From: an uncultured delta proteobacterium
Lineage (GTDB): Bacteria; Desulfobacterota; Binatia; Binatales; Binataceae
Length of the DNA stretch: 64,000 bases
Direction of reading: 5' to 3'
Assembly (NCBI GenBank): GCA_963721485.1
Contig: CAVRJV010000014.1
Span: 1,228,579-1,292,578, forward strand
The position numbers and the translations under genes were made by a program. Every line of letters starts with the position of its first letter. The stretch's first letter is position 1. A model generated the notes under the pieces. The model ran no database searches, was not told where the DNA came from, and worked only from the letters and a program-made list of their open reading frames with translations. Shown here piece by piece: positions 18,120 through 41,186 of the stretch.

Positions 18120-18125
18120 GACGGT

Positions 18126-22868: not shown

Positions 22869-22937
22869 CGCAGCGTCGGACGGGAAGGAACTCTGGTTGT
22901 GATCGGTTTACGAAGACAAAGATAAAAAGATTGGAGG

Positions 22938-25084: not shown

Positions 25085-27793
25085 TTGAAAACAGCGCGCC
25101 TAAAGGTTCTGATCGCGGTCCTCTGTATCGGGTTCATGGTCGTGGGTGTAGCGGCGCTTGGCCTGAGGCAGGCAGCGCGCCGGTCGCCTTCCGCCAGCAA
25201 CATTAAGATTGCGAATCTCTACGGCAAGTTGCCGATGAGCTTTGAGCGCAATGACGGCCAAACCGACGCCCAGGTCAAATTCCTCGCGCGCGGCAAGGGA
25301 TACACGATGTTCCTGACCCCGTCGGAGAACGTCCTTGCTTTGCGCAAATCTCCCAAGGGAGCGGCCGACGTCCTGCGAATCAAGATGATCGGAGCAAATC
25401 CCGCCCCGCGCGTCGAAGGCACAGGACAACTGGAGGCCAAGTCTAACTATTTTATCGGCAACGATCCGAAGAAGTGGCGCACCCACATACCCTCGTATTC
25501 AAAAGTCTGGTACCGCGATATCTATCCGGGAATCGATTTGGTCTACTACGGCGCGAACCAGCAGCATCTCGAATATGATTTCGTCGTTGCGCCGGGTGCC
25601 AATCCCAATTCGATCGGTCTACGGTTCGAGGGCGCCGAGCAGCTCACGCTCAATCAGCAGGGTGATGTAGTAATTCGCCTGCCCGACGGCGACGAGGTAA
25701 TCCATCACGTGCCGTCGATCTACCAGGAGCGCGATGGCAAGCGGGAAAAAGTGGACGGCCGATCCGTGATGCGAAGCGCGAACACGATCGGCTTCGAGCT
25801 GGCTGATTACGATCGCAGCCGTGCAGTCTATATCGATCCGGGGCTGGTTTACTCGACCTACTTGGGGGGGAACCTATTCGACCAAGGTGAAGGAATCGCA
25901 GTGGATTCCTCGGGATTCGCCTACGTTGCCGGGACAGCCGGCTCGCACAATTTCCCGACTACCGCGGGAAGCTTCGATACCACCTTCCCCGATCCAACTG
26001 GGTCGGGCAGCGCCTTCGTGACGAAATTCAAGACCGACGGCACCGGACTGGTCTACTCGACCTTCGTGGGTGGCGGCTTGGAGAATCACGCGAAAATCGC
26101 CATCGATCCCGAGGGCTTCGCATACATCGCAGGGTTGACCACCTCGACCGTTTTTCCAACGACCGCGGGAGCCTTCATTACCAGCAACCCAGCCGCAGCG
26201 CTAGGCCAGCAGATCACCGGATTCGTTTCGAAGTTAGCGGTCGACGGTTCAGCTTTGGTCTACTCAACCTATCTGGGTGGAAGCGGAAACGGATCAAGCG
26301 GTGATTCGGTCACCGCAATCGCAGTCGACTCTTCCGGCTTCGCCTACCTCACGGGACCAGCCTATTCCGCTGATTTCCCTACCACCGCCGGCGCGTTCCA
26401 GACCACGCAGCCTGGCCCGCAAGCCTGCTTCGTGACGAAGCTGAAGACCGACGGCACTGGCCTGGTCTATTCAACCTTTTTGGGGGGTAGCCATGACGAC
26501 GCGGCAGCCGCTATCGCCCTCGATTCCACGAACTTCGCCTACGTGGCGGGAACAACGGTATCGACAGATTTCCCAACCACCGCCGGTGCTTTCCAGACGA
26601 AGAACCCCGGTCTGGGCTTCACCTCCGCACCTTTTGTGACGAAGCTGAAGACCGATGGTTCGGGACTGGTTTACTCTACCTTTCTGGGCGGCAACAACGG
26701 CGATAGCGGTACAGGTATCGCCGTTGATTCACTGGGCTTCGCCTACATCGCCGGGGTAACCGAATCGGCCGACTTCCCTACCACCGCTGGCGCCTTCCAG
26801 ACCACGCTCGTTAGTACCCAGGATCCCTTTGTGGCGAAACTGAACGTCGCCGGCTCGGCACTGGTGTACTCCACCCTCCTGGGCGAAACTGGCGGCCGTA
26901 CCCCCACTAACGGGATACATATCGCCGTCGATTCCGCGGGCTCGGCTTACGTCGCCGGAACCACCGGCTCGACCGATTTTCCAACCACACCTGGCGCCTT
27001 TCAAACCGTCAACCATGAGAGCACGGGGGCTAACACCGCCTTCGTGACGAAGTTCAATACCAATGGCACAGGACTGGACTATTCGACCTACCTGGGAGGT
27101 AGCGTCCAGGATGGGGCGAACGGTATCGCGGTTGATTCTTCCAATCCACCCCAAGCGTACATTACCGGATATACTGAATCGACGGATTTTCCTACCACCG
27201 CCGGCGCGTTCCAGGTCACGAACAACACTACTGAAGGTCAGAGTGGCGGCAATGCCTTTGTGACGAAGCTCAACCCGGGCGCAGCGGCAAGCGGGAGTCC
27301 AACGGCGACTGCAACGGCTACGTCGTCGCGCACCGCGACAGCCACGGCGACTGCGACTAGTTCTGCAACGCCCACCGCAACCGCGACGGGCGCGACGGCG
27401 ACTGCCACGGCGACGGCGACCGCAACACCGACTGCCACGCCAACTCCTGTCGGGATGCTGTCTGTCAGTCCCTCGTCGCTGAATTTCGGCGACAAGACCA
27501 CAGTCGGAAAAACCAGCAAAGGCAACGACGTCACGATCAAGAATAACGGCGCCAAGAAGACCGGCTTGCCCGTCATGGTCGAGATGGAGAGCGCGTCGCC
27601 GTCGGTGTTCGCAGTGAAATCGCAATGCCAAAAAACACTCGCGCCCGGCAAGGACTGCAAGGTCTCAGTGACCTTCAAGCCGGTGGATGACACGACGGCG
27701 GAGACTGGCACCTTGATGATTTTTGACAACGCGACCGGATCGCCACAGAGCGTGGGGCTCTCCGGAATGGGTCAGGCTCCGAAGAAGAAATAG
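25085..27793 (+). CDS. secreted SBBP beta-propeller-repeat protein with TA/PT linker and C-terminal Ig-like (choice-of-anchor D type) domain
   Basis: 902 aa with a signal peptide (KVLIAVLCIGFMVVGVAALG). At least 8 repeats of the pattern LVYSTFLGG...AIAVDSSGFAYVAGTT.STDFPTTAGAFQT (SBBP type). Linker SPTATATATSSRTATATATATSSATPTATATGATATATATATATPTATPTP. The terminal domain ends GLSGMGQAPKKK. Confidence 0.8.
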   Translation: MKTARLKVLIAVLCIGFMVVGVAALGLRQAARRSPSASNIKIANLYGKLPMSFERNDGQTDAQVKFLARGKGYTMFLTPSENVLALRKSPKGAADVLRIKMIGANPAPRVEGTGQLEAKSNYFIGNDPKKWRTHIPSYSKVWYRDIYPGIDLVYYGANQQHLEYDFVVAPGANPNSIGLRFEGAEQLTLNQQGDVVIRLPDGDEVIHHVPSIYQERDGKREKVDGRSVMRSANTIGFELADYDRSRAVYIDPGLVYSTYLGGNLFDQGEGIAVDSSGFAYVAGTAGSHNFPTTAGSFDTTFPDPTGSGSAFVTKFKTDGTGLVYSTFVGGGLENHAKIAIDPEGFAYIAGLTTSTVFPTTAGAFITSNPAAALGQQITGFVSKLAVDGSALVYSTYLGGSGNGSSGDSVTAIAVDSSGFAYLTGPAYSADFPTTAGAFQTTQPGPQACFVTKLKTDGTGLVYSTFLGGSHDDAAAAIALDSTNFAYVAGTTVSTDFPTTAGAFQTKNPGLGFTSAPFVTKLKTDGSGLVYSTFLGGNNGDSGTGIAVDSLGFAYIAGVTESADFPTTAGAFQTTLVSTQDPFVAKLNVAGSALVYSTLLGETGGRTPTNGIHIAVDSAGSAYVAGTTGSTDFPTTPGAFQTVNHESTGANTAFVTKFNTNGTGLDYSTYLGGSVQDGANGIAVDSSNPPQAYITGYTESTDFPTTAGAFQVTNNTTEGQSGGNAFVTKLNPGAAASGSPTATATATSSRTATATATATSSATPTATATGATATATATATATPTATPTPVGMLSVSPSSLNFGDKTTVGKTSKGNDVTIKNNGAKKTGLPVMVEMESASPSVFAVKSQCQKTLAPGKDCKVSVTFKPVDDTTAETGTLMIFDNATGSPQSVGLSGMGQAPKKK

Positions 27794-27985
27794 CAGGAGG
27801 CACGCCTACATGAGGAGAATCGCAGGATCGACAGCCGAACATGGAAGCATGGCGGCGAACGTTGCCTAATCAACATTGGCCCGAAGACCTGCGATTATTC
27901 TTTGCATGAAGAAATGTGCTTCACTCGACGGCGTTACGCAGAAGGCGACTAAACCGGCAAGGGAACTCGAACATCGGGTGCGAAG

Positions 27986-30900
27986 GTGAGCCACCAACCG
28001 TTTCGTAGCTGGCCATTGTTGGTCGGGGCTGCTTTGATCCTCGCGGTTGCCTTGAGTACCGCATCTGTGGTGTTTGCGGGTCCGCGCGCGCTGGAGCCGG
28101 GCTACACCGGGCAGTATCTTTACCGCAACGATAATTTCCGCACCGGCCAGAATCTCGCCGAAACCGTGCTGACACCGTCGACTGTCAAGGCTTCGCAATT
28201 CGGTCTGCAATTCACAGATGCAATCGACGGCTATGCCTACGCCGAGCCGCTTTATGTTCCGGCGGTATCGATCCCGGGGATGGGAACCCACAACGTCGTG
28301 TACATCGCGACGGAGAACGACAGCGTGTACGCATTCGACGCCGACGCGCCGGGTCCTCCTCTATGGCAGACGAGCTTCATTAATCCTCAAGCAAATCCAC
28401 CGATCACCGCGGTGCCCGCGACCGACATCGGATGTGGGGACCTCGTCCCGATTATCGGCATCACGGCGACACCGGTGATCGACTCGACCAGCGGCACGAT
28501 GTACGTCGTATCGAAGGAGAAGACGGGACCCGGCAGTTATCGGCAGCGACTTCACGCACTCGATATTACGACCGGCCTCGAGCGGTCGAACAGTCCGATT
28601 ACGATTACGGCCACCTCGCCAGGTACAGCATCCGACGGCAACGGCACGACCGTTCCCTTCAACCCGCTCACGCAGTTGGGACGGCCGGCGCTCACGCTCT
28701 CGAACGGCATCGTGTATCTGGCCTTCGCGTCCCACTGCGACATCGATCCGTTTCACGGCTGGGTGCTGGGCTACAACGAGACCTCACTCGCGCAGGAAGT
28801 TGTCTTCAACACGACGCCCAACGGCACCAACGGTGGAATCTGGCAGTCCGGCTGCGGTTTGGGGGTAGATACCAATGGCGATTTGATCGCGATGACAGGC
28901 GACGGAGTTTTCGATACCGGCGCATCTCCGCAGGATTTCGGCGACAGCTTCCTGAGATTGACCCCCAATCCGGGAGCCACCGTATCGATGACGGTTACAA
29001 GTTCCTTTACTCCGCTCAACGAACTGATACTTGAGGATCAAGACCTTGACATGGGCTCAGGCGGCAACCTGCTCCTGCCGGATCAACCTGGGCCTTATCC
29101 TCATCTGATGATCGGCGTGGGCAAGTCGGGCTCAATCTACCTGGTCAACCGCGACAACATGGGCGGGTTCAACGCCAGCCAGGACATGATGGTGCAGGAG
29201 ATACTGCTCTACATCGACGGTATCTTCAGCACTCCTGCGTACTGGCAGGGAAACGTGCCGGGCGTCGGCTTGCAGAACATGGTCTACATGATTCCCGCGG
29301 GCGGGTTCCCGGACACCTTCGTGCTCTCCAACGGTATGATCCAGACGCCGCCGGCGGCGTCTGCCACAAACTACAGATTCGGGTTCCCCGGCGCCTCGCC
29401 GATGATCTCCGCCAACGGCACCACCGGCGGCGTACTTTGGGCGATTGACAGCTCGGCATATAAAACGAGCGGTCCCGCGATTCTCCGCGCGTTCGATCCA
29501 ACCAACCTGAGCAGCGAGTTCTATGACAGCAACATGTTCAGCTCGGACAATCCCGGGCCGGCGGTAAAGTTCAGCGTTCCCACCATAGCCAACGGCTCGG
29601 TCTACGTGGGGACCGAGACTCAGCTCGCCGTGTTCGGATTGTTTCCCGGCGGTGCGAGACCTTCACCGACCGCCAGTGTCTCGGCGACGCCGTCTGCGAC
29701 CATCACCTCGACGGTGACCGCGACAGCAACGCCGACCGCGACTCCGACTACCTCGATGGCAGTGACCGGGTCGCTCGCGTTCGGCAATGTCGCCGTTGGG
29801 CAGACGCCGACCAGGAATATAACGGTCTATAACGTCGGAGCGACGTATCCGCTGGTCATCTCAAGTGCGACTCCGTCTGATCCGGAATACATTTTGAGCG
29901 GAGCAGGCACCTGCGGGTCTATCCCAATCACGCTCGCGCACGGAACGAATTGCACGCTTGGAATCAGTTTTGCCCCCACCGCAATTGGTGCGCATAACGC
30001 GTCACTGATGTTGACCGACAACGCCGCTACCAACCCGCAGCACGTGTCGCTCACCGGCGCCGGCATCGCGGGGCTGACACTCACCAGCAGCCACCTCACG
30101 TTCGGCAGCGTGACGTTCGGCCTCACGGGGGTAGCGGCGCTCGCTGTGATCAATTATCAGACGCAGCCGGTGACGCTCAGCGAGAGCTTCAGCGGCGCCA
30201 ACCCCTCCGACTTCTCGATCACCGGAGGCACCTGCACTAACACCCTGGCAGCCAACACGGCATGCAGCCTGACCGTGACTTTCAAGCCGGGAGTTCTGGG
30301 GACTGAATCGGCGACGATGTCTATCACCGACACTCCCGATCCGCTGGGTCCCTACACGGTCGCGCTCAGCACCGGGCCGACGATTCCAGATTCGGAGCCT
30401 TACACCACGATGGCGTTTGGCAACGTGGTGCAGTCATCGACCCGGACTTTCAGCTTTTTGAACGTCACCAATTCGTCCCGGTTCCCGCTGACGCTGGGCG
30501 AGGCCATCTCCGGGCCGAACGCGGCTGACTTCGCCGTGACCCAAGTTCTCTCATGCGCGGGCAACACGGCCTGCGCTATTCCGGTGAGTTTCACGCCCAG
30601 CGGCGAGACGTTCCAGAGCGCGACGATGACCATCACCGTCGGCAACGATCCCACTAGCCCGCATGTGGTCGCACTCACAGGGACAGGAACGACGCCAATC
30701 CTGCTGAGCCCTGCTTCGACGCTCGCGTTCGGGACCGTAACGCGGCCCAACTGGAAGGCCATGACGATCACGGTGGTGAATCAAGGCGTCGCGACGCTGA
30801 CCCTTCCGACCCCGATGCTCAGTGGCGCCAACACCGCCGACTTCTCGCTAACCACCGCCGCGGCCAAACCATGCGGCGCGACCCTGGCCGGCGGCGCTTA

Positions 30901-31024
30901 CTGCTTGGTCGGCGTAACCTTCAAGCCCAGCGCAGCCGTCGCTGAGTCTGCTTCGATCGCGATCAGCGCCACTCCCGACGCTGCCAGCCCGCACAACATC
31001 AGCCTAACGGGCACAGGCATGTAG
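27986..31024 (+). CDS. secreted PQQ-like beta-propeller protein with PT linker and array of ~5 Ig-like (choice-of-anchor D / HYDIN-type) domains
   Basis: 1012 aa with a signal peptide. The N-terminal ~560 aa carry YRNDNFRTGQN, NVVYIATENDSVYAFDAD and TPVIDSTSGTMYVVSK, typical of PQQ/BamB-like propellers. Then linker PSPTASVSATPSATITSTVTATATPTATPTTS, followed by ~430 aa of repeated Ig-like units each with a C...C pair (G.C....LA....C.L.V.F.P). Confidence 0.7.
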   Translation: MSHQPFRSWPLLVGAALILAVALSTASVVFAGPRALEPGYTGQYLYRNDNFRTGQNLAETVLTPSTVKASQFGLQFTDAIDGYAYAEPLYVPAVSIPGMGTHNVVYIATENDSVYAFDADAPGPPLWQTSFINPQANPPITAVPATDIGCGDLVPIIGITATPVIDSTSGTMYVVSKEKTGPGSYRQRLHALDITTGLERSNSPITITATSPGTASDGNGTTVPFNPLTQLGRPALTLSNGIVYLAFASHCDIDPFHGWVLGYNETSLAQEVVFNTTPNGTNGGIWQSGCGLGVDTNGDLIAMTGDGVFDTGASPQDFGDSFLRLTPNPGATVSMTVTSSFTPLNELILEDQDLDMGSGGNLLLPDQPGPYPHLMIGVGKSGSIYLVNRDNMGGFNASQDMMVQEILLYIDGIFSTPAYWQGNVPGVGLQNMVYMIPAGGFPDTFVLSNGMIQTPPAASATNYRFGFPGASPMISANGTTGGVLWAIDSSAYKTSGPAILRAFDPTNLSSEFYDSNMFSSDNPGPAVKFSVPTIANGSVYVGTETQLAVFGLFPGGARPSPTASVSATPSATITSTVTATATPTATPTTSMAVTGSLAFGNVAVGQTPTRNITVYNVGATYPLVISSATPSDPEYILSGAGTCGSIPITLAHGTNCTLGISFAPTAIGAHNASLMLTDNAATNPQHVSLTGAGIAGLTLTSSHLTFGSVTFGLTGVAALAVINYQTQPVTLSESFSGANPSDFSITGGTCTNTLAANTACSLTVTFKPGVLGTESATMSITDTPDPLGPYTVALSTGPTIPDSEPYTTMAFGNVVQSSTRTFSFLNVTNSSRFPLTLGEAISGPNAADFAVTQVLSCAGNTACAIPVSFTPSGETFQSATMTITVGNDPTSPHVVALTGTGTTPILLSPASTLAFGTVTRPNWKAMTITVVNQGVATLTLPTPMLSGANTADFSLTTAAAKPCGATLAGGAYCLVGVTFKPSAAVAESASIAISATPDAASPHNISLTGTGM
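29729..31024 (+). repeat. arm A of a 1.3-kb inverted coding repeat (Ig-module array)
   Basis: Encodes TPTATPTTSMAVTGSLAFGNVAVGQTPTRNITVYNVGAT...SPHNISLTGTGM. This is colinear with the C-terminal 431 aa of the minus-strand gene 36537..41186. By eye about four-fifths of residues and ~80% of nt are identical, with one 1-codon indel. Confidence 0.85.
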
Positions 31025-31095
31025 CCGTTCATCGAAACCGTAGGAAAGAGAGAAAAATCGAACCTAGTCGAGCCATTCGACGCTAGCGTGTTAAT

Positions 31096-34000: not shown

Positions 34001-35769
34001 CTTCTGCAACTGCCACGGCCACAGCGACTCAGACCGCGACCGCCACTGTGACTGCGACACCGACAGCCGCGGCGACTGCGACAGCGACCGCAACCGTAAC
34101 CGCGACGCTTACGCCTACAGCGACCGGGACGGCGACCCCTAGCGCAACCCCGTCACCAACTTCGCCGGCGTTGGATGGAACGCCGACCAAAGGTCCGATC
34201 ACAAACGCCAGCTCGTTTACCACTAACTATCCTGGCGGTATCAGCGCGGGAGACTGTTGCATCATCCAGTACTGCGGCAGCTATTCATTGTCGACCGCGT
34301 CCGGCTGCGCCGCCAGCGGTTCTGGCTGGAACGTGTACAACATGGGGGCGTGGAACAGCACATACGAAGCTCAGCTTCTCACCCATGTCTACTCCGGCAG
34401 CGGCGACACGGCCCCGACCTGCAACTTTACCACGGGCCGTTATGGCGCGTGGGACATGACCTGCTACAAAAATTCAAATGCATGCATCTTTGGAGCAGGG
34501 CCGACAGCTCAAGTCGGCTCGGCCAGCAAGGTCGTCTCCGGGCCGGGACTCACAAACGCCCTCACCGGTGACGCGCATCTGTTCTTTACCTGCGCGTACA
34601 CCCAGCCGACCTTCAGCAACTATAACGACAACCTTGTCCAGGAAGTCACGCAGACTGAAACCTATGCCAGCGTAGCGGAAGCAGACTCGATCTTTGCCAG
34701 CTCAGGGGCCCAGCCCGCAGCGCAAGCGACCATCAGTTCCAGCCTCGCGAATATCGGCATCGAGGCCGACCTCCGCTCGTCAGCCGTCAACATGGCGACT
34801 GCGACGCCAACCGTCACAGCGACATCGACTGCAACCGCCACTCAGACCGCAACCGTAACTCCGACGGCCACTTCGACCGCAACCGCAACCGCAACCTCAA
34901 CCGGGACAGCAACGCCGACAGCTACCGGCACCGCAACGTCTTCTGCAACTGCCACGGCCACAGCGACTCAGACCGCGACCGCCACTGTGACTGCGACACC
35001 GACAGCCGCGGCGACTGCGACAGCGACCGCAACCGTAACCGCGACGCTTACGCCTACAGCGACCGGGACGGCGACCCCTAGCGCAACCCCGTCACCAACT
35101 TCGCCGGCGTTGGATGGAACGCCGACCAAAGGTCCGATCACAAACGCCAGCTCGTTTACCACTAACTATCCTGGCGGTATCAGCGCGGGAGACTGTTGCA
35201 TCATCCAGTACTGCGGCAGCTATTCATTGTCGACCGCGTCCGGCTGCGCCGCCAGCGGTTCTGGCTGGAACGTGTACAACATGGGGGCGTGGAACAGCAC
35301 ATACGAAGCTCAGCTTCTCACCCATGTCTACTCCGGCAGCGGCGACACGGCCCCGACCTGCAACTTTACCACGGGCCGTTATGGCGCGTGGGACATGACC
35401 TGCTACAAAAATTCAAATGCATGCATCTTTGGAGCAGGGCCGACAGCTCAAGTCGGCTCGGCCAGCAAGGTCGTCTCCGGGCCGGGACTCACAAACGCCC
35501 TCACCGGTGACGCGCATCTGTTCTTTACCTGCGCGTACACCCAGCCGACCTTCAGCAACTATAACGACAACCTTGTCCAGGAAGTCACGCAGACTGAAAC
35601 CTATGCCAGCGTAGCGGAAGCAGACTCGATCTTTGCCAGCTCAGGGGCCCAGCCCGCAGCGCAAGCGACCATCAGTTCCAGCCTCGCGAATATCGGCATC
35701 GAGGCCGACCTCCGCTCGTCAGCCGTCAACATGGCGACTGCGACGCCGACCGCCACTGCTACGCCCTGA
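31096..35769 (+). CDS. secreted S53 sedolisin/kumamolisin-type serine-carboxyl peptidase with giant Thr/Ala linker and duplicated C-terminal Cys-rich domain of unknown function
   Basis: Probable start is ATG 31129 (MISMLRVKRGSWTIAIVLIAGLLACIL). Pro-kumamolisin activation-domain pattern (YHHWLSAQEFGNRFGAS..DI..ISAWLRAH.F.V). S53 motifs GEAAIDVEWASAAAP, VVSISYGEAE, VFVSSGDEGA, GFGGTSISSPIMAG. Then ~290 aa of TA/TP/TS repeats, and two copies of (98-aa linker + 215-aa domain). Confidence 0.85.
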   Translation: MLVKELLVQYDMISMLRVKRGSWTIAIVLIAGLLACILPISTRALSAETSATAQITDPIDDNDVIAVPGNVRPEATAANDLGRVTDDFPLDHLLLQLRRSPKRERELDRLLGELEDASSPNYHHWLSAQEFGNRFGASPQDINTISAWLRAHRFRVNYVYPSAMLIDFSGTAGSVREAFHTEIHSLSVNGKIHFANMSDPAIPAALAPALAGVVSLNDFRPHPMYRRRADYTTSSGYQLMVPADLATIYNFNPIFAAGYSGIGQTIVTVEDTNLYTTADWTKFRSVMGLSTAYPSGTLTQVHPTGTGGTCTNPNVNADDGEAAIDVEWASAAAPNAAIELASCADTSTNFGGFIALQNLLSESSKPPAVVSISYGEAEASLGATFNMYISGLYQQAVAEGVSVFVSSGDEGAASADANTATATHGVAVSGFTSTPYNVSVGGTDFGDTYAGTAGSYWGTTNGSTYGSALSYVPEIPWNDSCASELFSTYAGYASPFGSAGFCNSTLAELYYLDTSAGSGGPSGCATGAPSTANVVSGSCAGYPKPTWQSILGNPADGVRDIPNVSLFAANGLWNHYYVVCYSDTANGGASCAGAPDTWAGFGGTSISSPIMAGIQALINQRTASRQGNPNPTYYSIAAAEYGAGGDAACNSSLGNAVNSSCTFYDVTIGDMDVDCTGSNNCYLPSGTYGGLSTSDSVLQTAFAAGVGWDFATGIGTVNANNLVVAFGPPVATATPTSSATATHTATATATRTATPTATRTATATATATSTATSTATSTATATPTATATPTATATATQTPTATGTSTATATSTQTATSTATATITATPTATATQTATATSTATATSTQTATSTGTATSTSTQTATPAATATATATATATGTSTSTPTATTTATASATSTATATSTQTATSTPTATATSTQTATPTATATATSTATATQTATVTPTATSTATATATSTGTATPTATGTATSSATATATATQTATATVTATPTAAATATATATVTATLTPTATGTATPSATPSPTSPALDGTPTKGPITNASSFTTNYPGGISAGDCCIIQYCGSYSLSTASGCAASGSGWNVYNMGAWNSTYEAQLLTHVYSGSGDTAPTCNFTTGRYGAWDMTCYKNSNACIFGAGPTAQVGSASKVVSGPGLTNALTGDAHLFFTCAYTQPTFSNYNDNLVQEVTQTETYASVAEADSIFASSGAQPAAQATISSSLANIGIEADLRSSAVNMATATPTVTATSTATATQTATVTPTATSTATATATSTGTATPTATGTATSSATATATATQTATATVTATPTAAATATATATVTATLTPTATGTATPSATPSPTSPALDGTPTKGPITNASSFTTNYPGGISAGDCCIIQYCGSYSLSTASGCAASGSGWNVYNMGAWNSTYEAQLLTHVYSGSGDTAPTCNFTTGRYGAWDMTCYKNSNACIFGAGPTAQVGSASKVVSGPGLTNALTGDAHLFFTCAYTQPTFSNYNDNLVQEVTQTETYASVAEADSIFASSGAQPAAQATISSSLANIGIEADLRSSAVNMATATPTATATP
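33886..35747 (+). repeat. perfect tandem duplication, period 939 bp (2 units)
   Basis: 33886-34808 is identical base for base to 34825-35747 (923 bp, no mismatch seen). Flanks stay similar for ~10-15 nt more. This is reflected in the duplicated shadow ORFs offset by exactly 939 (34029/34968, 34175/35114, 34257/35196, 34478/35417). Confidence 0.9.
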
Positions 35770-35834
35770 GGTGGTGGCTGGAGTCTTGGGGCAGAGCCAT
35801 GTCTTAGCTCGTCCCACCGTCACGAACAGGCTTG

Positions 35835-36210: not shown

Positions 36211-36482
36211 TCACCGATTGGCGGTAACGAAGAAATAGCGGCTCAAGGCAAGCGTTAACAAATTCCGTTCCAAGATAAGGTTTCTTCTCCAGCCTTCACT
36301 CAGCTTCCGCGTTTTTAAGAGACAATCACAGAACTCGTTTGGCTCGAAGGAAGCGACGCTGCTCGCCTGCGCACTTTTGCCTGGTTTGGCTAGTTCCGGC
36401 ACCAGGTTGGCACGAATCCCGCCAGTATGGTTACCGCTTACGCTCGACACCGGAAAGACTCGAACGTGCGAAAGGATATTGA

Positions 36483-36517
36483 ACCGCCGGAGCGATTGAT
36501 TCGCTCCGGCGGTTTTC
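36483..36517 (-). terminator. strong GC hairpin, likely (bidirectional) intrinsic terminator
   Basis: accgccggagcg-attgatt-cgctccggcggt is a perfect 12-bp stem, followed by TTTT on the + strand. It starts 23 nt downstream of the stop of the minus-strand gene 36537..41186. The minus-strand trailing tract is TTCAATATCCTTT. Confidence 0.5.
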
Positions 36518-36536
36518 GTCATCTGGATTGTAGAGC

Positions 36537-37829
36537 CTACTCCCCAGTGCCCGTCAGGCTCACATTGTGCGGGCTCGCCGCGTCGGGACTGACGCTAATC
36601 GCCACCGACGCTGACTCCGCAGTCGCCAGGCTCGGCTTGAAGGTCACACCGACCAGGCAATAGCCGCCGCCGGCCAACGTCGCGCCGCAGGGCTTGGCGG
36701 GAGCGGTGGTAAGTGAGAAATCAGCGGCGTTGGTACCGCCGATCACCGGAGTCGGCAGCGTGAGCGTCGCCGCGCCGAGATTCACCACCGTGATGGTCAG
36801 AGCCTTCGATTTGGTCGCCACCGTCCCGAACGCCAGCGTCGAGGCCGGGCTCAGTATGATCGGCGTCGTTCCCGTCCCGGTTAGCGTGACCACATGCGGG
36901 CTCGTCGGATCGTTGCTGACATTGATTGTCAACGTGGCGCTCTCGGCCGTCTCAGTGCTGGGCGTGAAGCTTACTGGAATAGCGCAGGCCGTGTTGGCGG
37001 CGCACGAGGTGACAGAGGTCACGGCGAAGTCCGCGGCATTGGGCCCCGTGATACCTTCGCTCAGCGTCAGCGGGAACGGCGATGAATTGGTCACCGTCAA
37101 ATAGGTGAACGTCCTGGTCGACGACTGCCAGAGGTCGCCAAATGCCATCGTGGTGTACGGCTCGGTATCCGGAATCGTCGGCCCCGTGCTGAGCGCGACC
37201 GTGTAGGGACCCAGCGGATCGGGAGTGTCGGTGATAGACATCGTCGCCGATTCTGTCCCCAGCGCTCCCGGCTTGAAGGTCACGATCAGGCTGCATGCGC
37301 TGTCAGCGGCCAGCGTGCTCGTGCAGGTGCCACCAGTGACTGAAAAGTCGGCCGGGTTGGCGCCGCTGAAGGCTTCGCTGAGAGACACCGGCTGCGTCTG
37401 ATAGTTGATTACGGCCAGCGCCGCTATCCCCGTGAGGCCGAACCTCACGCTGCCGTAAGTGAGATGGCTGCTCGTGAGTACCAGACCCGCGATCCCGGCG
37501 CCGGTGAGCGTTACTGACTGCGGGCTGGTCGTGGCGTTATCGGTGAGTGCCAGTGTCGCGTCGTGCGCGCCGATAGAGGTGGGCGCAAACGTCACTCCCA
37601 GCGTGCAATTCGTTCCGTGTGCGATCGTGATCGGTATCGGTCCGCACGTACCGGTGCCGCTCAGGGTATATTCCGGATCGGACAGCACCGCGCTTGAGAT
37701 GAGCAGCGGATGCGTCGCTCCGACATTATAGACCGTTATATTCTTGGTCGGCGTCTGCCCAACGGCCACATTGGCGAATGCGAGCGACGCCGTAACTGCC
37801 ATCGAGGTAGTCGGCGTTGCAGTGGGCGT
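36537..37829 (-). repeat. arm B of the 1.3-kb inverted coding repeat
   Basis: Encodes TPTATPTTSMAVTASLAFANVAVGQTPTKNITVYNVGAT...SPHNVSLTGTGE. See arm A at 29729..31024. Confidence 0.85.
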
Positions 37830-40800
37830 GGCGCTTACGGTCGAAGTCGCGCTTGCGGTCGGGGTCGCGGTTTCGGTCGTGGTCGGGGTAGCCGTGACGG
37901 TTGCGGTCGCAGTTGTTGTTGCGGTGGCAGTCGCCGTCTGCGTCGCGGTAGCGGTATTCGTTGCGGTGGCAGTCGCCGTCGAGGTTGCCGTAGCTGTCGA
38001 GGTTGTGGTCGCTGTCGATGTGGCAGTCGGCGTGGCCGTGACTGTCGCGGTCGCCGTCGGAGTCGCCGTCAGCGTTGCAGTTGCGGTGGCCGTCGACGTG
38101 GCAGTGGCCGTCGCGGTCGAAGTGGCGGTTGCCGTCGATGTCGCGGTCGCAGTCGCGGTTTTTGTTGCCGTAGCCGTCGAGGTTGCGGTCGCCGTCGCGG
38201 TTGCGGTCGGCGTGGGCGTGACTGTCGCCGTCGCCGTCGGAGTCGCCGTCAGCGTTGCGGTGGCCGTGGCCGTCGACGTGGCTGTAGGTGTCGCGGTCGA
38301 AGTGGCGGTTGCGGTTGCGGTCGGTGTTGCGGTTGCAGTCGCGGTTTTCGTTGCCGTGGCTGTTGACGTAGCAGTCGAGGTTGCGGTCGGCGTGGCCGTG
38401 ACTGTTGCCGTCGCAGTCGAGGTCGCCGTCAGCGTTGCAGTTGCGGTGGCTGTGGCCGTCGACGTGGCTGTGGCTGTTGCAGTCGAAGTGGCGGTTGCGG
38501 TCGCCGTTGCAGTGGCGGTTTTCGTTGCGGTGGCGGTTTTCGTGGCGGTGGCTGTGGCCGTTTTCGTGGCGGTTGCAGTCGCCGTTGCGGTAGCCGTTGC
38601 AGTCGCGGTAGCCGTTGCAGTCGCGGTTGCGGTGGCAGTCGCCGTCGGCGTCGGCGAAATCGCCGGCTTGTCGTATTCGAGCACGCGATTGTTCTGCGTA
38701 TCAGCGACGTAGAGATTACCGGCGTTGTCTACCGCGACGCCGGCTGGATCGCAGAGGCTGTCCGAGTTGCCGGTCAACCCGTCGAAGTCGCACCCGTTGG
38801 AATCGAAACTGCCGCCCTGCCCGAAGACCAGATTCGCGGCGGCCTCGGTCGAAAGCGGCGGCTCGTATTCGAGCACGCGGCTGTCGCCGTCATCGGCCAC
38901 GTAAACATTGCCGTTCGAGTCCACCGACACCGCGTTAGGAAAGCAAAGGCTGGTCGTCCCCAGCCCAACGCTGTCGCATCCATTTGAAACAAAGTTGGAC
39001 TGCCCCAGCACGAGGTTGGCCGTGGCGCTGGTAAGCGGGCTGTTATATTCGAGCACACGGCTGTTTTGTGTGTCGGCGACGTAGAGATGGCCGCTGCCGT
39101 CCACGGCAACCCCGGCGGCTTCGCACAGGTCGATAGAAGTGGGATTGCCTCCGCCGGTGTCGTAATTGCACAGACCGGCAGTGAAGCTGCTTTGCCCGAA
39201 CACCCGATCGGCAATCGTGTCGGTCGTGAGCGGGGTGTTGTATTCGAGCACACGGTTGTTGCCTTGATCAGCGACATAGAGATTGCCGCTGCCATCCAGC
39301 GCCACCCCCTGGGGCGTGCTTAAGCCGCTCGCACCCAGCCCGCTATTGTTGGAGGTAAAGCTGCCACCCTGCCCGAACACCACGCTGGCGCCTCCCCCGA
39401 CGCAAGGAAATGAGGAGCATCCGGAAAAGGGAGTGTGAAATTCGAGCACGCGGTTGTTGCCCTCGTCCGCTACGTACAGGTTGCCGAGAGTGTCCACCGC
39501 AATCCCGAACGGAGTGCACAGGCTGCTCGCGCTTGGGTTCAGATTGCCGAGGTTGCAAGCTCCCGACAAAAAGCCCGGCTGGCCAATCACCAGGTCAGCA
39601 GCTCCGCCGTTGACGAAGGTCGTTACGTTCTTGTACCCCAGCACGCGGTTGTTGCTGCCGTCGGACACATACAGCCGGTTTGGCACCGTGCTCGTGTCAA
39701 TCGCCACCGACTGAGGACTGTCCATGCCGCGCCCGTCGATCAAGTTCGGCCCGTTGTGCGAAAAATCCTGCTGACCCAGTACGAGGTCGGCGGTCGTATT
39801 AGTGAGCGGGGTATTGTATTCGAGCGCGCGGTTGTTGGCCGAATCGGCGACATAGAGGTTGCCCGACGCATCCGCCGCGACACCGGCATTCGAATTAAGA
39901 CACAAGTCGTTGGCGCTGGCGGTCGTCAAAATACCGGTGTCGTAGTTGCATGTCGTCGAGGTGAAGCTCCCACCCTGGCCAAAGACATGGTTGGCGGTGC
40001 TGCTGGTCAGCGGGCTGCTGTACTCGAGCACCCGGTTGTCGGAGTCCGCGATATAGAGGTCTCCGCTGCCGTCCAACGCAACCGCAAGGGGCGCGTTAAG
40101 GCTGTTCGCGCTCGTTCCGCCATTGTCAGCGGTAGTCGTAGTGAAGCTCCCGTTCTGTCCGAAAACGTGATTCGCCGTAGTATTGGTCAGCGGAGTGTTG
40201 TACTCGAGCACTCGATTGTTGCCGCCATCGGCGACGTAGAGGTCGCCGTCAGGCGCCACTGCGACCGCGGTTGGATCGCACAGGTCGATGTCGCTGGCGA
40301 GAGACGTGCTACCGGTGTCGGAATTGCAGTCGTTCGAGGTGAAGCTGCCGTCCTGTCCGAAGACGTTGTTAGCGGTTGTGTTGCTGAGCGGGTTGGTAAA
40401 CTCGAGCACGCGGCTGTCGCTTTCATCCGCGACGTAAAGATCGCCGCTGGAATCCACCGCGACTCCGACCGGAAAGCACAGGCTGCTCGCACTCAGGCCA
40501 CTACTGTCGCAGCCGTTCGCGTTGAAGTTGTCGCCCTGCCCGAACACCAGATGAGCGGACGAGCCAACGCAGGGGAAAGAACCGCAGCCGGCGAACGGGG
40601 CGTTGTATTCGAGCACGCGGCTGTTGCCGGTATCCGCCACGTATAGGTTGCCGGCGGAATCCACGGTGACGCCGACCGGATCGCACAGACTGTTCGCGCT
40701 GGGACTGACACAACCGAAGTCGAGCTCGGAGATGCCCGAGTTCAGGTCGGGCTGGCCGATCACCAGGTCGGCCGCACCGCCGCTGACGAAGGTCGCGACG

Positions 40801-41186
40801 TCCTTGTAGCCCAATATTCGGCTGTTGCCGCCGTCGGAGACGTACAACCGATTCGGCGTCACGCTCGAGTCAATCGCGATGGCCCGAGGGCTCCACATGC
40901 CGGTGGCGTCTGTGAGATTTAGGGCGTTGTGGACGAAGTCGAGCTGCCCCAGTACGCGGTCGGCGACTGTATCGCCCTGCATCGCCATCGAGGGAACCAC
41001 CAGGGCAGCGCCGATGATTAGCGTGCTAATCAGCAGTGCTGGCCTGATGAATCCTCTGCGAGCGCCCGCGATCCAGGCAGCCGCCGCAACCCAACTTCGG
41101 GTCAGAAACCTTGCCGGATTTATCATGCTTCCACTCTCCATTCTCCTACAAGCTGTACCATGTCGCGACATTTTGTAACACGCCAA
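36537..41186 (-). CDS. secreted NHL-repeat double beta-propeller protein with ~330-aa Thr/Ala linker and ~5 Ig-like domains
   Basis: 1549 aa. Probable start is MINPARF at 41126, with a possible twin-arginine motif ARRGFIRPALLISTLIIGAALVVPSMA. About 13 NHL-type repeats (GNLYVAD..NNRVLEY) lie in two halves paralogous to 12633..15533. There is a very long (TA)n-type linker. The C-terminal 431 aa are paralogous to the end of 27986..31024. Confidence 0.85.
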   Translation of the reverse strand: MACYKMSRHGTACRRMESGSMINPARFLTRSWVAAAAWIAGARRGFIRPALLISTLIIGAALVVPSMAMQGDTVADRVLGQLDFVHNALNLTDATGMWSPRAIAIDSSVTPNRLYVSDGGNSRILGYKDVATFVSGGAADLVIGQPDLNSGISELDFGCVSPSANSLCDPVGVTVDSAGNLYVADTGNSRVLEYNAPFAGCGSFPCVGSSAHLVFGQGDNFNANGCDSSGLSASSLCFPVGVAVDSSGDLYVADESDSRVLEFTNPLSNTTANNVFGQDGSFTSNDCNSDTGSTSLASDIDLCDPTAVAVAPDGDLYVADGGNNRVLEYNTPLTNTTANHVFGQNGSFTTTTADNGGTSANSLNAPLAVALDGSGDLYIADSDNRVLEYSSPLTSSTANHVFGQGGSFTSTTCNYDTGILTTASANDLCLNSNAGVAADASGNLYVADSANNRALEYNTPLTNTTADLVLGQQDFSHNGPNLIDGRGMDSPQSVAIDTSTVPNRLYVSDGSNNRVLGYKNVTTFVNGGAADLVIGQPGFLSGACNLGNLNPSASSLCTPFGIAVDTLGNLYVADEGNNRVLEFHTPFSGCSSFPCVGGGASVVFGQGGSFTSNNSGLGASGLSTPQGVALDGSGNLYVADQGNNRVLEYNTPLTTDTIADRVFGQSSFTAGLCNYDTGGGNPTSIDLCEAAGVAVDGSGHLYVADTQNSRVLEYNSPLTSATANLVLGQSNFVSNGCDSVGLGTTSLCFPNAVSVDSNGNVYVADDGDSRVLEYEPPLSTEAAANLVFGQGGSFDSNGCDFDGLTGNSDSLCDPAGVAVDNAGNLYVADTQNNRVLEYDKPAISPTPTATATATATATATATATATATATATATKTATATATKTATATKTATATATATATSTATATATSTATATATATLTATSTATATVTATPTATSTATSTATATKTATATATPTATATATSTATPTATSTATATATLTATPTATATVTPTPTATATATATSTATATKTATATATSTATATSTATATATSTATATATLTATPTATATVTATPTATSTATTTSTATATSTATATATNTATATQTATATATTTATATVTATPTTTETATPTASATSTVSATPTATPTTSMAVTASLAFANVAVGQTPTKNITVYNVGATHPLLISSAVLSDPEYTLSGTGTCGPIPITIAHGTNCTLGVTFAPTSIGAHDATLALTDNATTSPQSVTLTGAGIAGLVLTSSHLTYGSVRFGLTGIAALAVINYQTQPVSLSEAFSGANPADFSVTGGTCTSTLAADSACSLIVTFKPGALGTESATMSITDTPDPLGPYTVALSTGPTIPDTEPYTTMAFGDLWQSSTRTFTYLTVTNSSPFPLTLSEGITGPNAADFAVTSVTSCAANTACAIPVSFTPSTETAESATLTINVSNDPTSPHVVTLTGTGTTPIILSPASTLAFGTVATKSKALTITVVNLGAATLTLPTPVIGGTNAADFSLTTAPAKPCGATLAGGGYCLVGVTFKPSLATAESASVAISVSPDAASPHNVSLTGTGE
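38028..38580 (-). repeat. three ~180-bp higher-order tandem repeats inside the Thr/Ala linker coding region
   Basis: Units start at 38041, 38221 and 38401 (actgtcgc(g/c)gtcgccgtcggagtcgccgtcagcgttgc...), ~90% identical, unit 3 with a 6-nt indel. They are embedded in hexanucleotide ACNGCN-type low complexity spanning ~37830-38660. Confidence 0.75.

What the first reader, a model, noticed from the sequence alone, without database searches (positions are those of the whole stretch)
25085..41186. Island of four giant secreted proteins built from one modular grammar: head - hyper-Thr/Ala linker - Ig-like tail
SBBP propeller (902 aa), PQQ-like propeller (1012 aa), S53 sedolisin (1557 aa) and NHL double propeller (1549 aa) all carry signal peptides. 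In each, the head is followed by a T/A/P/S linker. In three of the four, HYDIN/choice-of-anchor-D-type Ig modules follow. The same grammar recurs outside the island (12633..15533, 46615..48996, 60453..62441). Different heads share near-identical tails and vice versa (the NHL heads of 12633 and 36537 have 1 versus 5 Ig modules). This argues for active domain shuffling within a lineage-specific surface/secreted protein family of unknown function.
Basis: partly seen in the sequence, partly recalled or inferred. Interest (0 to 1): 0.65.

Follow-up and report, generated by a model that had tools for sequence, protein, structure and literature searches.

The report
Modular secreted proteins swapping Ig tails
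A soil bacterium of the uncultured Binatia lineage carries a cluster of very large exported proteins built as working head, long threonine-rich spacer and Ig-like tail, and comparison with relatives shows that whole tails have been swapped between unrelated heads, with the break points in the spacers.

Summary
The window is from a Binatia (Ca. Binataceae) genome. Four adjacent ORFs encode DUF7948+SBBP (A), an eight-bladed PQQ-dehydrogenase/BamB-like propeller (B, fold level only), an intact S53 sedolisin (C) and an NHL propeller (D). Each has an N-terminal hydrophobic export segment and a strict (Thr-X)n linker of 37-306 aa.

A has 1 choice-of-anchor-D/ASH Ig module. B and D have 4 each, not 5. 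C has none: it carries a rare Cys-rich all-beta module, tandemly duplicated.

Shuffling evidence: B and its orthologue are 92.7% identical (nt) in the head but 60-73% in the tail. B's tail is 82% (aa) identical to D's and 79% to a sedolisin tail in another genome. Sedolisin orthologues elsewhere carry Ig tails. All mapped breakpoints lie in linker DNA. Short-read contigs confirm two junctions, so these are not assembly chimeras.

Ig arrays and heads are widespread in soil phyla; only the (Thr-X)n linkers look Binatia-typical. Tail function is inferred: a portable secretion or surface-display module, by analogy with the VesB Ig-fold. This is a new variant of a known kind, of moderate interest.

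The parts
25085..27793 (+). Gene A, 902 aa. N-terminal hydrophobic export segment (aa 8-27), DUF7948 (25241-25840), SBBP beta-propeller repeats (25847-27274), (Thr-X)n linker (27278-27457), one choice-of-anchor-D/ASH Ig module (27449-27781), C-terminus ...GQAPKKK.
   Evidence: Pfam DUF7948 207 bits, SBBP 158 bits, PF22544 28.3 bits; NCBIfam NF012200 45.5 bits. Linker and N-terminus. Module HMM.
27986..31024 (+). Gene B, 1012 aa. Signal peptide (cleavage about VFA|G, 27986-28078), eight-bladed PQQ-dehydrogenase/BamB-like beta-propeller head (28079-29653), 37-aa linker (29663-29773), four Ig modules M1-M4 (29750-31021).
   Evidence: AF2 pLDDT 79.5/pTM 0.86 and Foldseek hits to PedH/MDH/XoxF/BamB. 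NF012200 175 bits, 4 stretches. Module HMM. Head-linker-tail junction 29600-29854 covered by an independent short-read contig with 0 differences.
31096..35769 (+). Gene C, 1557 aa (probable start 31138). Signal peptide, pro-kumamolisin activation domain (31393-31752), S53 sedolisin catalytic domain (31813-33270), 306-aa linker (33271-34188), Cys-rich all-beta module copy 1 (34165-34794), 113-aa linker (34789-35127), module copy 2 (35104-35733), short T-rich end.
   Evidence: Pfam Pro-kuma_activ E=9e-25. Kumamolisin E=6e-25 with aligned catalytic motifs. Tandem duplication 33877-34817 / 34816-35756 at 99.7%. Junction contig. Module family.
36537..41186 (-). Gene D, 1549 aa (probable start 41126). 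Signal peptide, NHL-repeat head, probably two six-bladed propellers (38682-40979), 298-aa (Thr-X)n linker (37779-38672), four Ig modules (36540-37808).
   Evidence: Pfam NHL 234 bits; NF012200 149 bits, 4 stretches. Module HMM. Linker. Orthologues L165/L176 have the same architecture.
29729..31017 (+). B-side arm of the tail cassette shared with D (inverted repeat partner 36544-37829), 82% nt identity. Homology begins inside B's linker and ends at the stop codon.
36544..37829 (-). D-side arm of the shared four-Ig tail cassette.
12633..15533 (+). Gene E, 966 aa. Signal peptide, NHL head 51% identical to D's (12735-15092), 37-aa linker (15093-15203), one divergent Ig module (15195-15524), C-terminus ...GKAAKK.
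46615..48996 (-). Gene F, 793 aa, reversed order. Ig module first (48613-48939), 38-aa linker (48505-48618), then an unannotated region and a C-terminal propeller-like head (46618-48504). No clear signal peptide in this copy; the L001 homologue has one.
60453..62441 (-). Gene G, 662 aa. Signal-like N-terminus, unannotated Cys-containing head (61245-62312), 155-aa linker (60780-61244), one Ig module (60459-60788) 55% identical to A's.
36484..36512 (-). Perfect 14-bp GC-rich hairpin about 25 nt 3' of D's stop codon, terminator- or REP-like. Conserved at 87-98% in several other Binatia loci.
   Evidence: (z = -5.3)

Best explanation
These are Sec-exported, multi-domain extracytoplasmic proteins of a Binatia bacterium. 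They are assembled from three interchangeable kinds of part.

(1) The head supplies the activity: an intact sedolisin protease, or SBBP, NHL or PQQ-like beta-propellers that probably bind or process ligands.

(2) The linker is a (Thr-X)n spacer of 37 to more than 300 aa, and up to 641 aa in relatives. It is most likely an extended, O-glycosylated, protease-resistant stalk.

(3) The terminal array holds 1-5 Ig-like modules of the choice-of-anchor-D / ASH / HYDIN-VesB family, each with a conserved Cys pair. I infer that this array is a portable module for crossing the outer membrane and/or staying on the cell surface, as shown for the VesB Ig-fold with the type II secretion system.

The genes diversify by cassette exchange, and the breakpoints fall in the linker-coding DNA. 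NHL + 4 Ig appears to be the ancestral pairing. That tail was copied onto the PQQ-like head in this genome and onto a sedolisin head in a relative. The window's sedolisin instead captured a small stand-alone secreted Cys-rich protein through its linker and then duplicated it.

Shown: the architecture, the homologies, the discordant identities, the breakpoint positions and the reality of two junctions.

Inferred: export, glycosylation, and the secretion/display role of the tail.
For: Architecture.

Same head, different tails:
- B against its L001 orthologue is 92.7% identical (nt) in the head, but 69%, 73% and 60% in Ig modules M1-M3. The sliding-window drop falls at 29650-29790, which is the linker.
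- 120 B-head homologues carry 1 Ig usually without a linker (34), linker + 2 Ig (62) or 3 Ig (5).
- NHL-head orthologues carry linkers of 30-641 aa and 1-5 Ig modules.

Same tail, different heads:
- The tails of window B (PQQ-like), window D (NHL) and L005 (sedolisin) are 79-82% identical (aa).
- D's tail is only 63-66% identical to the tails of its NHL orthologues, whose heads are about 70% identical to D's.
- This tail family also sits on beta-helix, GH-like, SBBP, PQQ_2 and FG-GAP/VCBS heads.

Sedolisin:
- Orthologues 80-85% identical in the head carry 3, 4 or 5 Ig modules.
- C's homology to L005 ends at 34080-34170, the 3' end of the linker.
- C's Cys-rich module exists elsewhere as a stand-alone protein of signal peptide, module and linker. 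P0001 is 97% identical and has the same C-terminal residues.

Not artefacts: independent short-read contigs with 0 differences span B's head-linker-Ig junction and C's duplication junction. Exact matches between different genes' linkers are at most 22 nt.

Extracytoplasmic location: N-terminal h-regions preceded by basic residues, a conserved Cys pair in every Ig module and 8 invariant Cys in the C module.

Tail function lead: PF22544 hits pass the gathering score in A, B, D and G. The VesB Ig-fold grafted onto beta-lactamase drives T2SS secretion that depends on the EpsC PDZ domain (PMC12369372).

Glycosylation lead: a PMT_2 GT-C gene at 10636-12417 sits next to E.
Against: - No experimental or transcript evidence exists for expression, export, glycosylation or localisation.
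- No signal-peptide predictor was available. F lacks a clear signal peptide.
- No T2SS genes and no recognised C-terminal sorting signal are in the window.
- The match to the VesB-type family is at the level of a broad Ig family (28-57 bits), so the functional transfer is by analogy only.
- The glycosyltransferase link is weak: PMT_2 at 33 bits and no PDB relative.
- Linker DNA of different genes shares only 13-22 nt of exact identity. Ordinary RecA-type homologous recombination through linkers would therefore be inefficient. Breakpoints may cluster in linkers simply because only those junctions give viable proteins.
- The direction of tail transfer is inferred from pairwise identities, not from a reconciled phylogeny.
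Confidence: 0.62

Rival explanations
1. The Ig tails are adhesion or matrix-binding modules (fibrillar-adhesin or CBM-like) rather than secretion tags. The head is held at a distance from a substrate or from the cell envelope by the stalk, and tail exchange changes what the protein sticks to.
For: Ig-like arrays are typical of bacterial surface adhesins (PMC8877628, listed). Module number varies from 1 to 15 between homologues, as in stalk-forming adhesins. Single-Ig tails end in a conserved Lys-rich C-terminus...GTGKAPKKK, which could bind anionic envelope polymers.
Against: No ligand-binding motif or known anchor was detected. The same tail serves a protease and several propellers, which fits a generic routing role at least as well. 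Nothing here separates this reading from the secretion-tag reading, and the two are not mutually exclusive.
Confidence: 0.25
2. The head-tail combinations are assembly or binning chimeras, created when a metagenome assembler jumped between genes through the repetitive linker DNA.
For: Linker DNA of unrelated genes cross-aligns at 64-72% in many registers. The window shows several frameshifted genes, compatible with long-read assembly errors. Many database entries are truncated at linkers.
Against: Exact matches between different genes' linkers are at most 22 nt. Independent short-read contigs from other samples span B's head-linker-Ig junction and C's duplication junction with 0 differences. 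The same architectures recur in independent MAGs: sedolisin + Ig in three, NHL + 4 Ig in at least two.
Confidence: 0.03
3. There was no exchange. Tails and heads were inherited together, and the discordant identities reflect different evolutionary rates, with tails kept similar by strong selection or concerted evolution within a genome.
For: B and D tails form an inverted repeat 5.5 kb apart, and a 94-96% identity peak at 30280-30414 suggests ongoing gene conversion.
Against: Rate differences cannot explain module number changing on one head (1, 2, 3 or 4 Ig). They also cannot explain an A-type tail on a B-type head in L002, or a non-Ig module on the sedolisin. The L005 sedolisin tail comes from another genome and is as close to D's tail as B's tail is. 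Gene conversion is itself a form of cassette exchange.
Confidence: 0.05
4. The (Thr-X)n segments are not passive glycosylated spacers but self-associating beta-structure, silk- or amyloid-like, with all Thr on one face. They would knit these proteins into a fibrous surface layer.
For: Strict alternation: 86-94% of Thr residues are followed by Thr two positions later, over up to 300 residues. The peptide pattern is kept despite mixed codon use, which implies selection on the pattern itself.
Against: Pro, Ser, Lys and Gln interrupt the pattern irregularly. Linker length varies from 0 to 641 aa among orthologues, which is easier to reconcile with a spacer. Comparable Thr/Pro-rich linkers of secreted glycoside hydrolases are described as flexible spacers whose O-glycans affect their stability (PMC5939190 and PMC3701571, seen only as titles and abstracts in the listing; the rest is my own knowledge).
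Confidence: 0.05

Closest known systems
Modular secreted glycoside hydrolases with Pro/Thr-rich ('PT box') linkers and accessory beta-sandwich modules (Cellulomonas/Thermobifida cellulases, chitinases)
   Same: A catalytic or binding head joined to a beta-sandwich accessory module by a low-complexity Thr-rich linker. The proteins are exported. The linkers are known O-glycosylation targets (own knowledge; the linker papers were seen only as titles and abstracts in the listing). The families evolved by domain shuffling.
   Different: The heads here are mostly beta-propellers and a sedolisin, not CAZymes. The linker is a strict (Thr-X)n alternation with X mainly Ala, and is far longer (up to 306 aa here, 641 aa in L184). 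The accessory module is choice-of-anchor-D/ASH Ig, not a CBM. The host is a diderm Binatia lineage.
Vibrio cholerae VesB: protease + C-terminal Ig-fold (namesake of Pfam PF22544) + GlyGly-CTERM
   Same: An exported protease head followed by a C-terminal Ig-fold of the same Pfam family (PF22544 hits above the gathering score in A, B, D and G). The Ig-fold is a transferable module that directs T2SS secretion when grafted onto an unrelated periplasmic enzyme (PMC12369372). That would explain why unrelated heads share it.
   Different: No GlyGly-CTERM or rhombosortase signal follows the Ig modules here. There are 1-4 modules rather than one. A long linker separates head and tail. The sequence relationship is remote. 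No T2SS gene is in the window.
NCBI 'choice-of-anchor D domain-containing protein' (NF012200) of Acidobacteriota, Binataceae and others
   Same: A, B, D and G pass the NF012200 cut-off. Database homologues of B are already named this way. Multi-Ig arrays on SBBP, NHL and other heads are common in soil phyla.
   Different: In the non-Binatia hosts sampled, the arrays follow the head with no long T-rich linker; a few show only 15-46-aa T-rich segments. None of the window's proteins ends in one of the alternative anchors the family name alludes to (my recollection of the NCBIfam description, not tested).
Sedolisin (MEROPS S53) peptidases such as kumamolisin and TPP1
   Same: C has the activation prodomain, the Glu-x3-Asp, SGD and GGTS catalytic motifs, and an overall alignment to kumamolisin.
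   Different: C has an insertion of roughly 80 aa, Cys-containing, between the oxyanion Asp and the Ser nucleophile. It also has an 830-aa C-terminal extension of linkers plus a duplicated Cys-rich module. Orthologues carry Ig arrays instead.

Membership tests
Sedolisin / peptidase S53 (gene C head) | N-terminal pro-kumamolisin activation domain | tested here: met
   Pfam PF09286, 88.1 bits against a cut-off of 23.5, E=8.7e-25
Sedolisin / peptidase S53 (gene C head) | Catalytic Ser-Glu-Asp triad plus the oxyanion-hole Asp | tested here: met
   In the alignment to pro-kumamolisin 1t1e, DGEAAIDVEW aligns with DGEVELDIEV, SSGDEG with AAGDSG, and GGTSISSP with GGTAAVAP (the deposited chain has Ala at the nucleophile position; that this is the S278A mutant is my own knowledge). 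TPP1 has SGTSASTP at the same place.
Choice-of-anchor D (NF012200) / ASH / HYDIN-VesB-like Ig (PF22544) | HMM score above the curated cut-off | tested here: met
   NF012200 (cut-off 45): A 45.5, B 175.2, D 148.6, G 50.2. PF22544 (cut-off 25.5): A 28.3, B 56.6, D 29.2, G 30.0.
Choice-of-anchor D (NF012200) / ASH / HYDIN-VesB-like Ig (PF22544) | The same criterion for the tails of E and F | tested here: not met
   No NCBIfam hit at E<=0.01. F scores 16.6-20.3 bits on Pfam, below cut-off. E gets no Pfam Ig hit. Both match a module HMM built from the window's own modules (E=6.6e-10 and 1.9e-12) and align to G at 41% and 35%. They are homologous but divergent.
Choice-of-anchor D (NF012200) / ASH / HYDIN-VesB-like Ig (PF22544) | An adjacent C-terminal sorting or anchor signal (PEP-CTERM, LPXTG, T9SS CTD, GlyGly-CTERM) | tested here: not met
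   No such model was hit in any of the seven proteins at E<=0.01. The proteins end directly after the last Ig strand (...TGTGM/E or ...GKAPKKK). This is typical of the family, not strictly defining.
NHL-repeat beta-propeller (heads of D and E) | Multiple NHL repeats above the Pfam threshold | tested here: met
   PF01436: D 233.9 bits (8 stretches), E 254.1 bits (10 stretches). 'Double six-bladed propeller' is inferred from repeat spacing and internal self-similarity, not from a model.
SBBP beta-propeller (head of A) | SBBP repeats above the threshold, with the associated DUF7948 | tested here: met
   PF06739, 158.5 bits, 7 stretches; PF25778, 207.2 bits
PQQ-dependent dehydrogenase / BamB-type eight-bladed propeller (head of B) | Eight-bladed propeller fold | tested here: met
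   AF2 model with pLDDT 79.5 and pTM 0.86. Foldseek top hits are PedH, quinohaemoprotein ADH, MDH and XoxF at E about 1e-9 to 1e-10 and TMq 0.52-0.57; BamB at TMt up to 0.72.
PQQ-dependent dehydrogenase / BamB-type eight-bladed propeller (head of B) | Sequence-family membership (Pfam PQQ/PQQ_2) and cofactor/metal-binding residues | tested here: not met
   PQQ_2 scores only 12.8 bits (cut-off 27.6, E=0.096). There is no PDB sequence hit, and identity to the fold hits is 11-13%. Cofactor residues were not examined. B should be called PQQ-like in fold only, not a quinoprotein.
Genomic island / mobile element (25-41 kb) | Integrase, tRNA or att site, foreign composition, absence from relatives | tested here: inconclusive
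   There is no tRNA and no integrase within the flanks. The direct repeats are paralogous antitoxin genes. The GC rise is mostly at codon position 2, an amino-acid effect; GC3 is 70-76% against 57-71% in the flanks. The gene neighbourhood is not conserved in relatives: B and C orthologues lie on different contigs of one MAG.
O-glycosylated mucin-like / PT-type linker | Ser/Thr-rich low-complexity segment in an exported protein, with O-glycans attached | not testable with these tools
   The composition is met (T 34-48%, A 18-33%). Glycosylation needs glycoproteomics. The only genomic hint is a PMT_2 GT-C gene next to E.

The most novel reading that the evidence does not exclude
Binatia use long (Thr-X)n linker-coding DNA as preferred junctions for cassette exchange. 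This would be a bacterial counterpart of exon shuffling. A portable VesB-type Ig tail acts as a universal 'export and display' tag, moved between unrelated enzymes and binding propellers to build a combinatorial, heavily O-glycosylated ('bacterial mucin') surface proteome. Linker length would set how far each head is displayed from the cell.
Probability: 0.15. Interest if true: 0.75.

Novelty: new variant of a known kind. Interest (0 to 1): 0.45.

Why it matters
Binatia are abundant, uncultured soil bacteria, and their cell surface and exoproteome are undescribed. The main genomic survey of the phylum does not mention secretion, linkers or glycosylation. Three points follow.

- **Evolution.** This locus gives a clear, sequence-level case of tail-cassette exchange between unrelated exported proteins. 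Breakpoints are mapped to within about 100 nt, and donor-like genes are identified.
- **Testable function.** The widespread choice-of-anchor-D/ASH Ig modules may be portable secretion or display tags. If so, they could be used to export heterologous enzymes from diderm bacteria.
- **Annotation.** Many database entries for this class are tail-only fragments, truncated at the linker. Domain-architecture censuses of soil metagenomes therefore under-count these proteins.

Tried and rejected
- Exact-sequence look-ups of B and of P0001 found no contig on record.
- PDB sequence searches for B's head, C's Cys-rich module and the two putative glycosyltransferase-like membrane proteins found nothing.
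- Pfam at E<=1 found nothing for C's module, G's head or F's middle region.
- The fold search of C's module (pLDDT 70.6) gave no match (best TM 0.33, E 0.04). It stays an unclassified all-beta domain.
- I looked for a remnant of an ancestral Ig tail downstream of C and found none.
- I looked for the stand-alone Cys-rich gene next to sedolisin genes in relatives. It is absent from those loci, and in one genome the two genes lie about 2.5 Mb apart.
- Promoter and terminator scans of the island gave counts equal to chance, and Rfam gave no hit.
- I considered that the tail-only database proteins are free-standing donor cassettes. I rejected this because they start at the conserved Met at the linker/Ig boundary, mostly on short contigs, or on a contig where the head ORF is itself truncated (P0176's contig, L180). 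Truncated gene calls are the simpler reading.
- I considered a horizontally acquired island. Composition and flanks do not support it.
- The Binatota genomics paper has nothing on secretion or linkers. Literature searches found no description of (Thr-Ala)n linkers in this lineage.

Full report
**Source and setting.** A scan of one genome per GTDB species with B's head found its closest relatives in MAGs labelled Candidatus Binataceae or 'uncultured delta proteobacterium' (93%, 71%, 47% and 45% identity). The window therefore comes from a Binatia genome from soil. All later relatives fit this, and the sequencing runs that hold the sequence are soil metagenomes.

**Checking the observation.** The four ORFs exist as described.
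- A = DUF7948 + seven SBBP repeats.
- D = NHL repeats.
- C = a sedolisin. It has the pro-kumamolisin activation domain (E=9e-25) and a kumamolisin match (E=6e-25). The Glu-x3-Asp, SGD and GGTS catalytic motifs are aligned and intact.
- B's head has no significant Pfam or PDB sequence match. An AlphaFold model built on 41 homologues (pLDDT 79.5, pTM 0.86) is an eight-bladed propeller. Its best structural neighbours are PQQ/lanthanide alcohol dehydrogenases and BamB (E about 1e-9 to 1e-10, TMq 0.52-0.57, 11-13% identity). 'PQQ-like' is correct as a fold label only.

All four, plus E and G, start with a basic n-region and a strongly hydrophobic 12-mer (Kyte-Doolittle 2.5-3.4), followed by an AXA-like site. 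F does not. Orthologue N-termini suggest that C starts at 31138 and D at 41126.

**Linkers.** T/A/P/S segments follow each head: 60, 37, 306 (+113) and 298 aa in A-D, and 37, 38 and 155 aa in E, F and G. Such segments of at least 20 aa occur in exactly these seven ORFs, and in no other ORF of at least 100 aa in any frame.
- They are a strict (Thr-X)n alternation. In C, D and G, 86-94% of Thr residues are followed by another Thr two positions later. X is mostly Ala, then Ser, Pro, Val, Lys and Gln.
- They are written with mixed synonymous codons.
- The longest exact match between linkers of different genes is 13-22 nt.

**Tails.** A module HMM and NCBIfam agree that B and D each carry four Ig modules, not five. 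A, E, F and G carry one each and C none. In F the order is reversed: Ig, linker, head. Every module keeps a Cys pair.

C's C-terminal part is a different domain of about 210 aa, all-beta, with eight invariant cysteines. It is present twice because of a 941-nt tandem duplication at 99.7% identity. The only three differences lie at the edges of the repeat unit. A 92-nt contig from an independent short-read run spans the copy-1/copy-2 junction without a difference.

**Evidence for cassette exchange.**

1. *Same head, different tails.*
   - Window B and its L001 orthologue are 92.7% identical (nt) over the head, but 69%, 73% and 60% over Ig modules 1-3. In sliding windows, identity falls from 90-97% to 61-70% across 29650-29790, which is the linker. 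B-D similarity rises from background to 90% over the same stretch.
   - The L002 orthologue (71% head identity) has no linker and a single Ig that is 59% identical to A's tail. L004 has a 141-aa P/T linker and two Ig modules.
   - Among the 120 closest database homologues of the B head, 34 have one Ig (usually no linker, ending ...GTGKAPKKK). A further 62 have a linker and two Ig (...HIKLFGSSK), five have three Ig, and none has the window's four.
   - NHL-head orthologues show linkers of 30-641 aa and 1-5 Ig modules.

2. *Same tail, different heads.*
   - The four-module tails of B (PQQ-like head), D (NHL head) and the L005 protein (sedolisin head, another genome) are 79-82% identical to each other.
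   - D's tail is 63-66% identical to the tails of its NHL orthologues L165 and L176, whose heads are about 70% identical to D's. NHL + 4 Ig therefore looks vertically inherited, and that tail was copied onto other heads.
   - Related three-module tails sit on beta-helix, glycoside-hydrolase-like, SBBP, PQQ_2 and FG-GAP/VCBS heads.

3. *Tail replacement in C.*
   - Sedolisin orthologues 80-85% identical in the head carry 220-300-aa linkers and 3, 4 or 5 Ig modules in three other Binatia genomes.
   - C's similarity to L005 runs through the head and the linker and stops at 34080-34170, the 3' end of the linker.
   - What follows is the Cys-rich module. That module family has only 10 hits in 5.8 billion proteins and 12 representatives in 1.84 billion. 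Elsewhere it is a small stand-alone secreted protein: signal peptide, module, T-rich linker, then a conserved C-terminal WWW[KE]SPW[AV]GR motif. It also occurs in other linker-containing proteins.
   - P0001 is 97% identical to C's module. It has a signal peptide and a short T/P segment before the module, and it ends with the same residues as C. C therefore looks like a linker-to-linker fusion of a sedolisin with such a gene, followed by duplication of the captured unit.
   - In one relative the stand-alone gene and the sedolisin gene are about 2.5 Mb apart.

**Are these assembly chimeras?** This is the obvious rival, because linker DNA of unrelated genes cross-aligns at 64-72% in many registers. 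It is largely excluded on three grounds.
- A 255-nt contig from a different sample covers the end of B's head, the whole linker and the start of Ig module 1 with no differences.
- C's duplication junction is likewise covered.
- The architectures recur in independent MAGs.

**Lineage specificity.** Choice-of-anchor-D Ig arrays related to D's tail occur in Acidobacteriota, Chloroflexota, Actinomycetota, Bacteroidota, Myxococcota and others. The same holds for SBBP and NHL heads. In the hosts I examined, long T-rich linkers were found almost only in Binatia. Non-Binatia hosts had none, or only short ones of 15-46 aa. NCBI already names such proteins 'choice-of-anchor D domain-containing protein'. 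The parts are common; the long (Thr-X)n linker style and the intensity of exchange are what mark this lineage.

**Is it an island?**
- The gene neighbourhood is not conserved. Homology with relatives stops at the gene borders, and the B and C orthologues of one MAG lie on different contigs.
- The block is bracketed by two Rv0623-like antitoxin genes (88% nt, direct repeats), one with a frameshifted PIN toxin next to it. An ERF recombinase and Cro-like genes lie upstream.
- There is no tRNA and no integrase.
- The higher GC is mainly a codon-position-2 effect of Thr/Ala/Gly-rich proteins.

I regard it as a lineage-specific juxtaposition in a recombination-prone region, not a demonstrated mobile island.

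**How it most likely works.**
- *Shown:* the architecture, the homologies and the exchange.
- *Inferred:* the proteins leave the cytoplasm by Sec, form disulfides outside it, and consist of an active head, an extended spacer and a terminal Ig array.

For the tail I commit to a portable secretion/surface-display role. The modules pass the gathering score of PF22544, the family named for the VesB Ig-fold. That Ig-fold, grafted onto beta-lactamase, drives type II secretion through the PDZ domain of EpsC. Ig or Fn3 domains carry secretion information in PulA and PelI too (PMC12369372). A generic routing tag explains three things:
- why unrelated heads share it;
- why it is always terminal (C-terminal, or directly at the N-terminus in F);
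- why swapping it is tolerated.

An adhesion or anchoring role is equally compatible with the sequence data and is not exclusive of this.

For the linker, I favour an O-glycosylated, extended, protease-resistant stalk, by analogy with PT linkers. A PMT_2-type GT-C gene next to E is a weak hint. A self-associating beta structure is a minority alternative.

Breakpoints may cluster in linkers because recombinants there are viable, rather than because the DNA is recombinogenic. The short exact matches argue against efficient homologous recombination.

**Comparison and novelty.** The closest analogues are the PT-linker modular glycoside hydrolases (same logic, different parts) and VesB (same tail family, tested function). 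Membership is met for S53, NHL, SBBP and choice-of-anchor-D/PF22544 (A, B, D, G). It is not met for a PQQ quinoprotein (B), and not met at curated thresholds for the tails of E and F. I found no published description of (Thr-Ala)n linkers or of this exoprotein class in Binatia. I rate it a new variant of a known kind, of moderate interest. The evolutionary case is unusually clean, but function remains inferred.

Noticed in passing
window 1-4150: Three tandem copies of about 1.23 kb (72-90% nt) of an acyltransferase-3-type membrane protein gene. All three are split over two frames, so they are either pseudogenes or carry indel errors of the assembly.
   Followed up: partly
window 24179-24481, 41443-41543, 42111-42761: Two Rv0623-like (PSK_trans_fac) antitoxin genes, 88% identical at DNA level and in direct orientation, bracket the four-gene block. 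A fragment lies at 41443-41543. The PIN toxin next to the second copy is frameshifted (42350-42616 and 42360-42761).
   Followed up: partly
window 59054-60239 and 62462-63658; fragment 42895-43204: Gene G sits between two inverted rve-family transposase genes that are 83% identical, a layout like a composite transposon. A 310-nt fragment of the same transposase lies near the right edge of the island.
   Followed up: partly
window 36484-36512 (minus strand), also L011 2123-2151 and 6922-6950, L176 12247-12275: A perfect 14-bp GC-rich hairpin about 25 nt after D's stop codon (fold z = -5.3). It is conserved at 87-98% in several other Binatia loci, some of them directly 3' of Ig-tail genes. It is terminator- or REP-like. 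There is only one copy in the window.
   Followed up: partly
proteins P0131-P0250: Most database relatives of the Ig tail are tail-only 'proteins' of about 315 or 420 aa. They begin at a conserved Met at the linker/Ig boundary (...TTSM|AVTASLAFGN). These are probably gene calls truncated at contig ends or at frameshifts inside linkers, so public architecture counts for this class are biased.
   Followed up: partly
window 30280-30414 versus 37140-37280: Within the B/D tail repeat (mean 82% nt identity), one stretch at the M2/M3 module boundary reaches 94-96% identity. This suggests a more recent gene-conversion tract between the two inverted copies.
   Followed up: no
proteins P0004-P0009; locus L085 10001-11074: Stand-alone homologues of C's Cys-rich module end in a conserved motif, SPA[LVRK][MV]Q[HY][HQ]L[EG]Q[AT]WWW[KE]SPW[AV]G[RQ], placed after their T-rich linker. 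It might be a sorting or processing signal. In L085 the gene lies next to a DsbA/thioredoxin-like gene and near a lasso-peptide-like PqqD/transglutaminase/ABC cluster.
   Followed up: no
window 50775-54368 (-) and 55163-58135 (+): Two divergently oriented paralogous large regulators, 40% aa identity over about 950 residues. Both are related to TOMM-type kinase/cyclase fusion proteins. One has a zinc-ribbon plus cyclase N-terminus, the other an OmpR-type DNA-binding N-terminus.
   Followed up: no
window 4119-12417: A cluster related to envelope glycans lies upstream of E. It holds a PMT_2-type GT-C membrane protein (10636-12417), a membrane protein with C-terminal TPR repeats (6794-9052), a DUF4185 protein (5577-6740) and another polytopic membrane protein (4119-5573). 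These are possible candidates for linker glycosylation.
   Followed up: partly
window 16000-24000: An ERF-family recombinase (18990-19787), a Cro/YdaS-like HTH gene (20222-20530) and several unannotated small ORFs lie here. This looks like a prophage or mobile-element remnant directly upstream of the island.
   Followed up: no
window 43327-44571 (-) and 44735-45781 (+): Two further exported proteins without linker or Ig tail lie between the island and F. One is a right-handed beta-helix protein and the other a small NHL/Reg_prop-like propeller. They show that similar heads also exist as bare versions.
   Followed up: no
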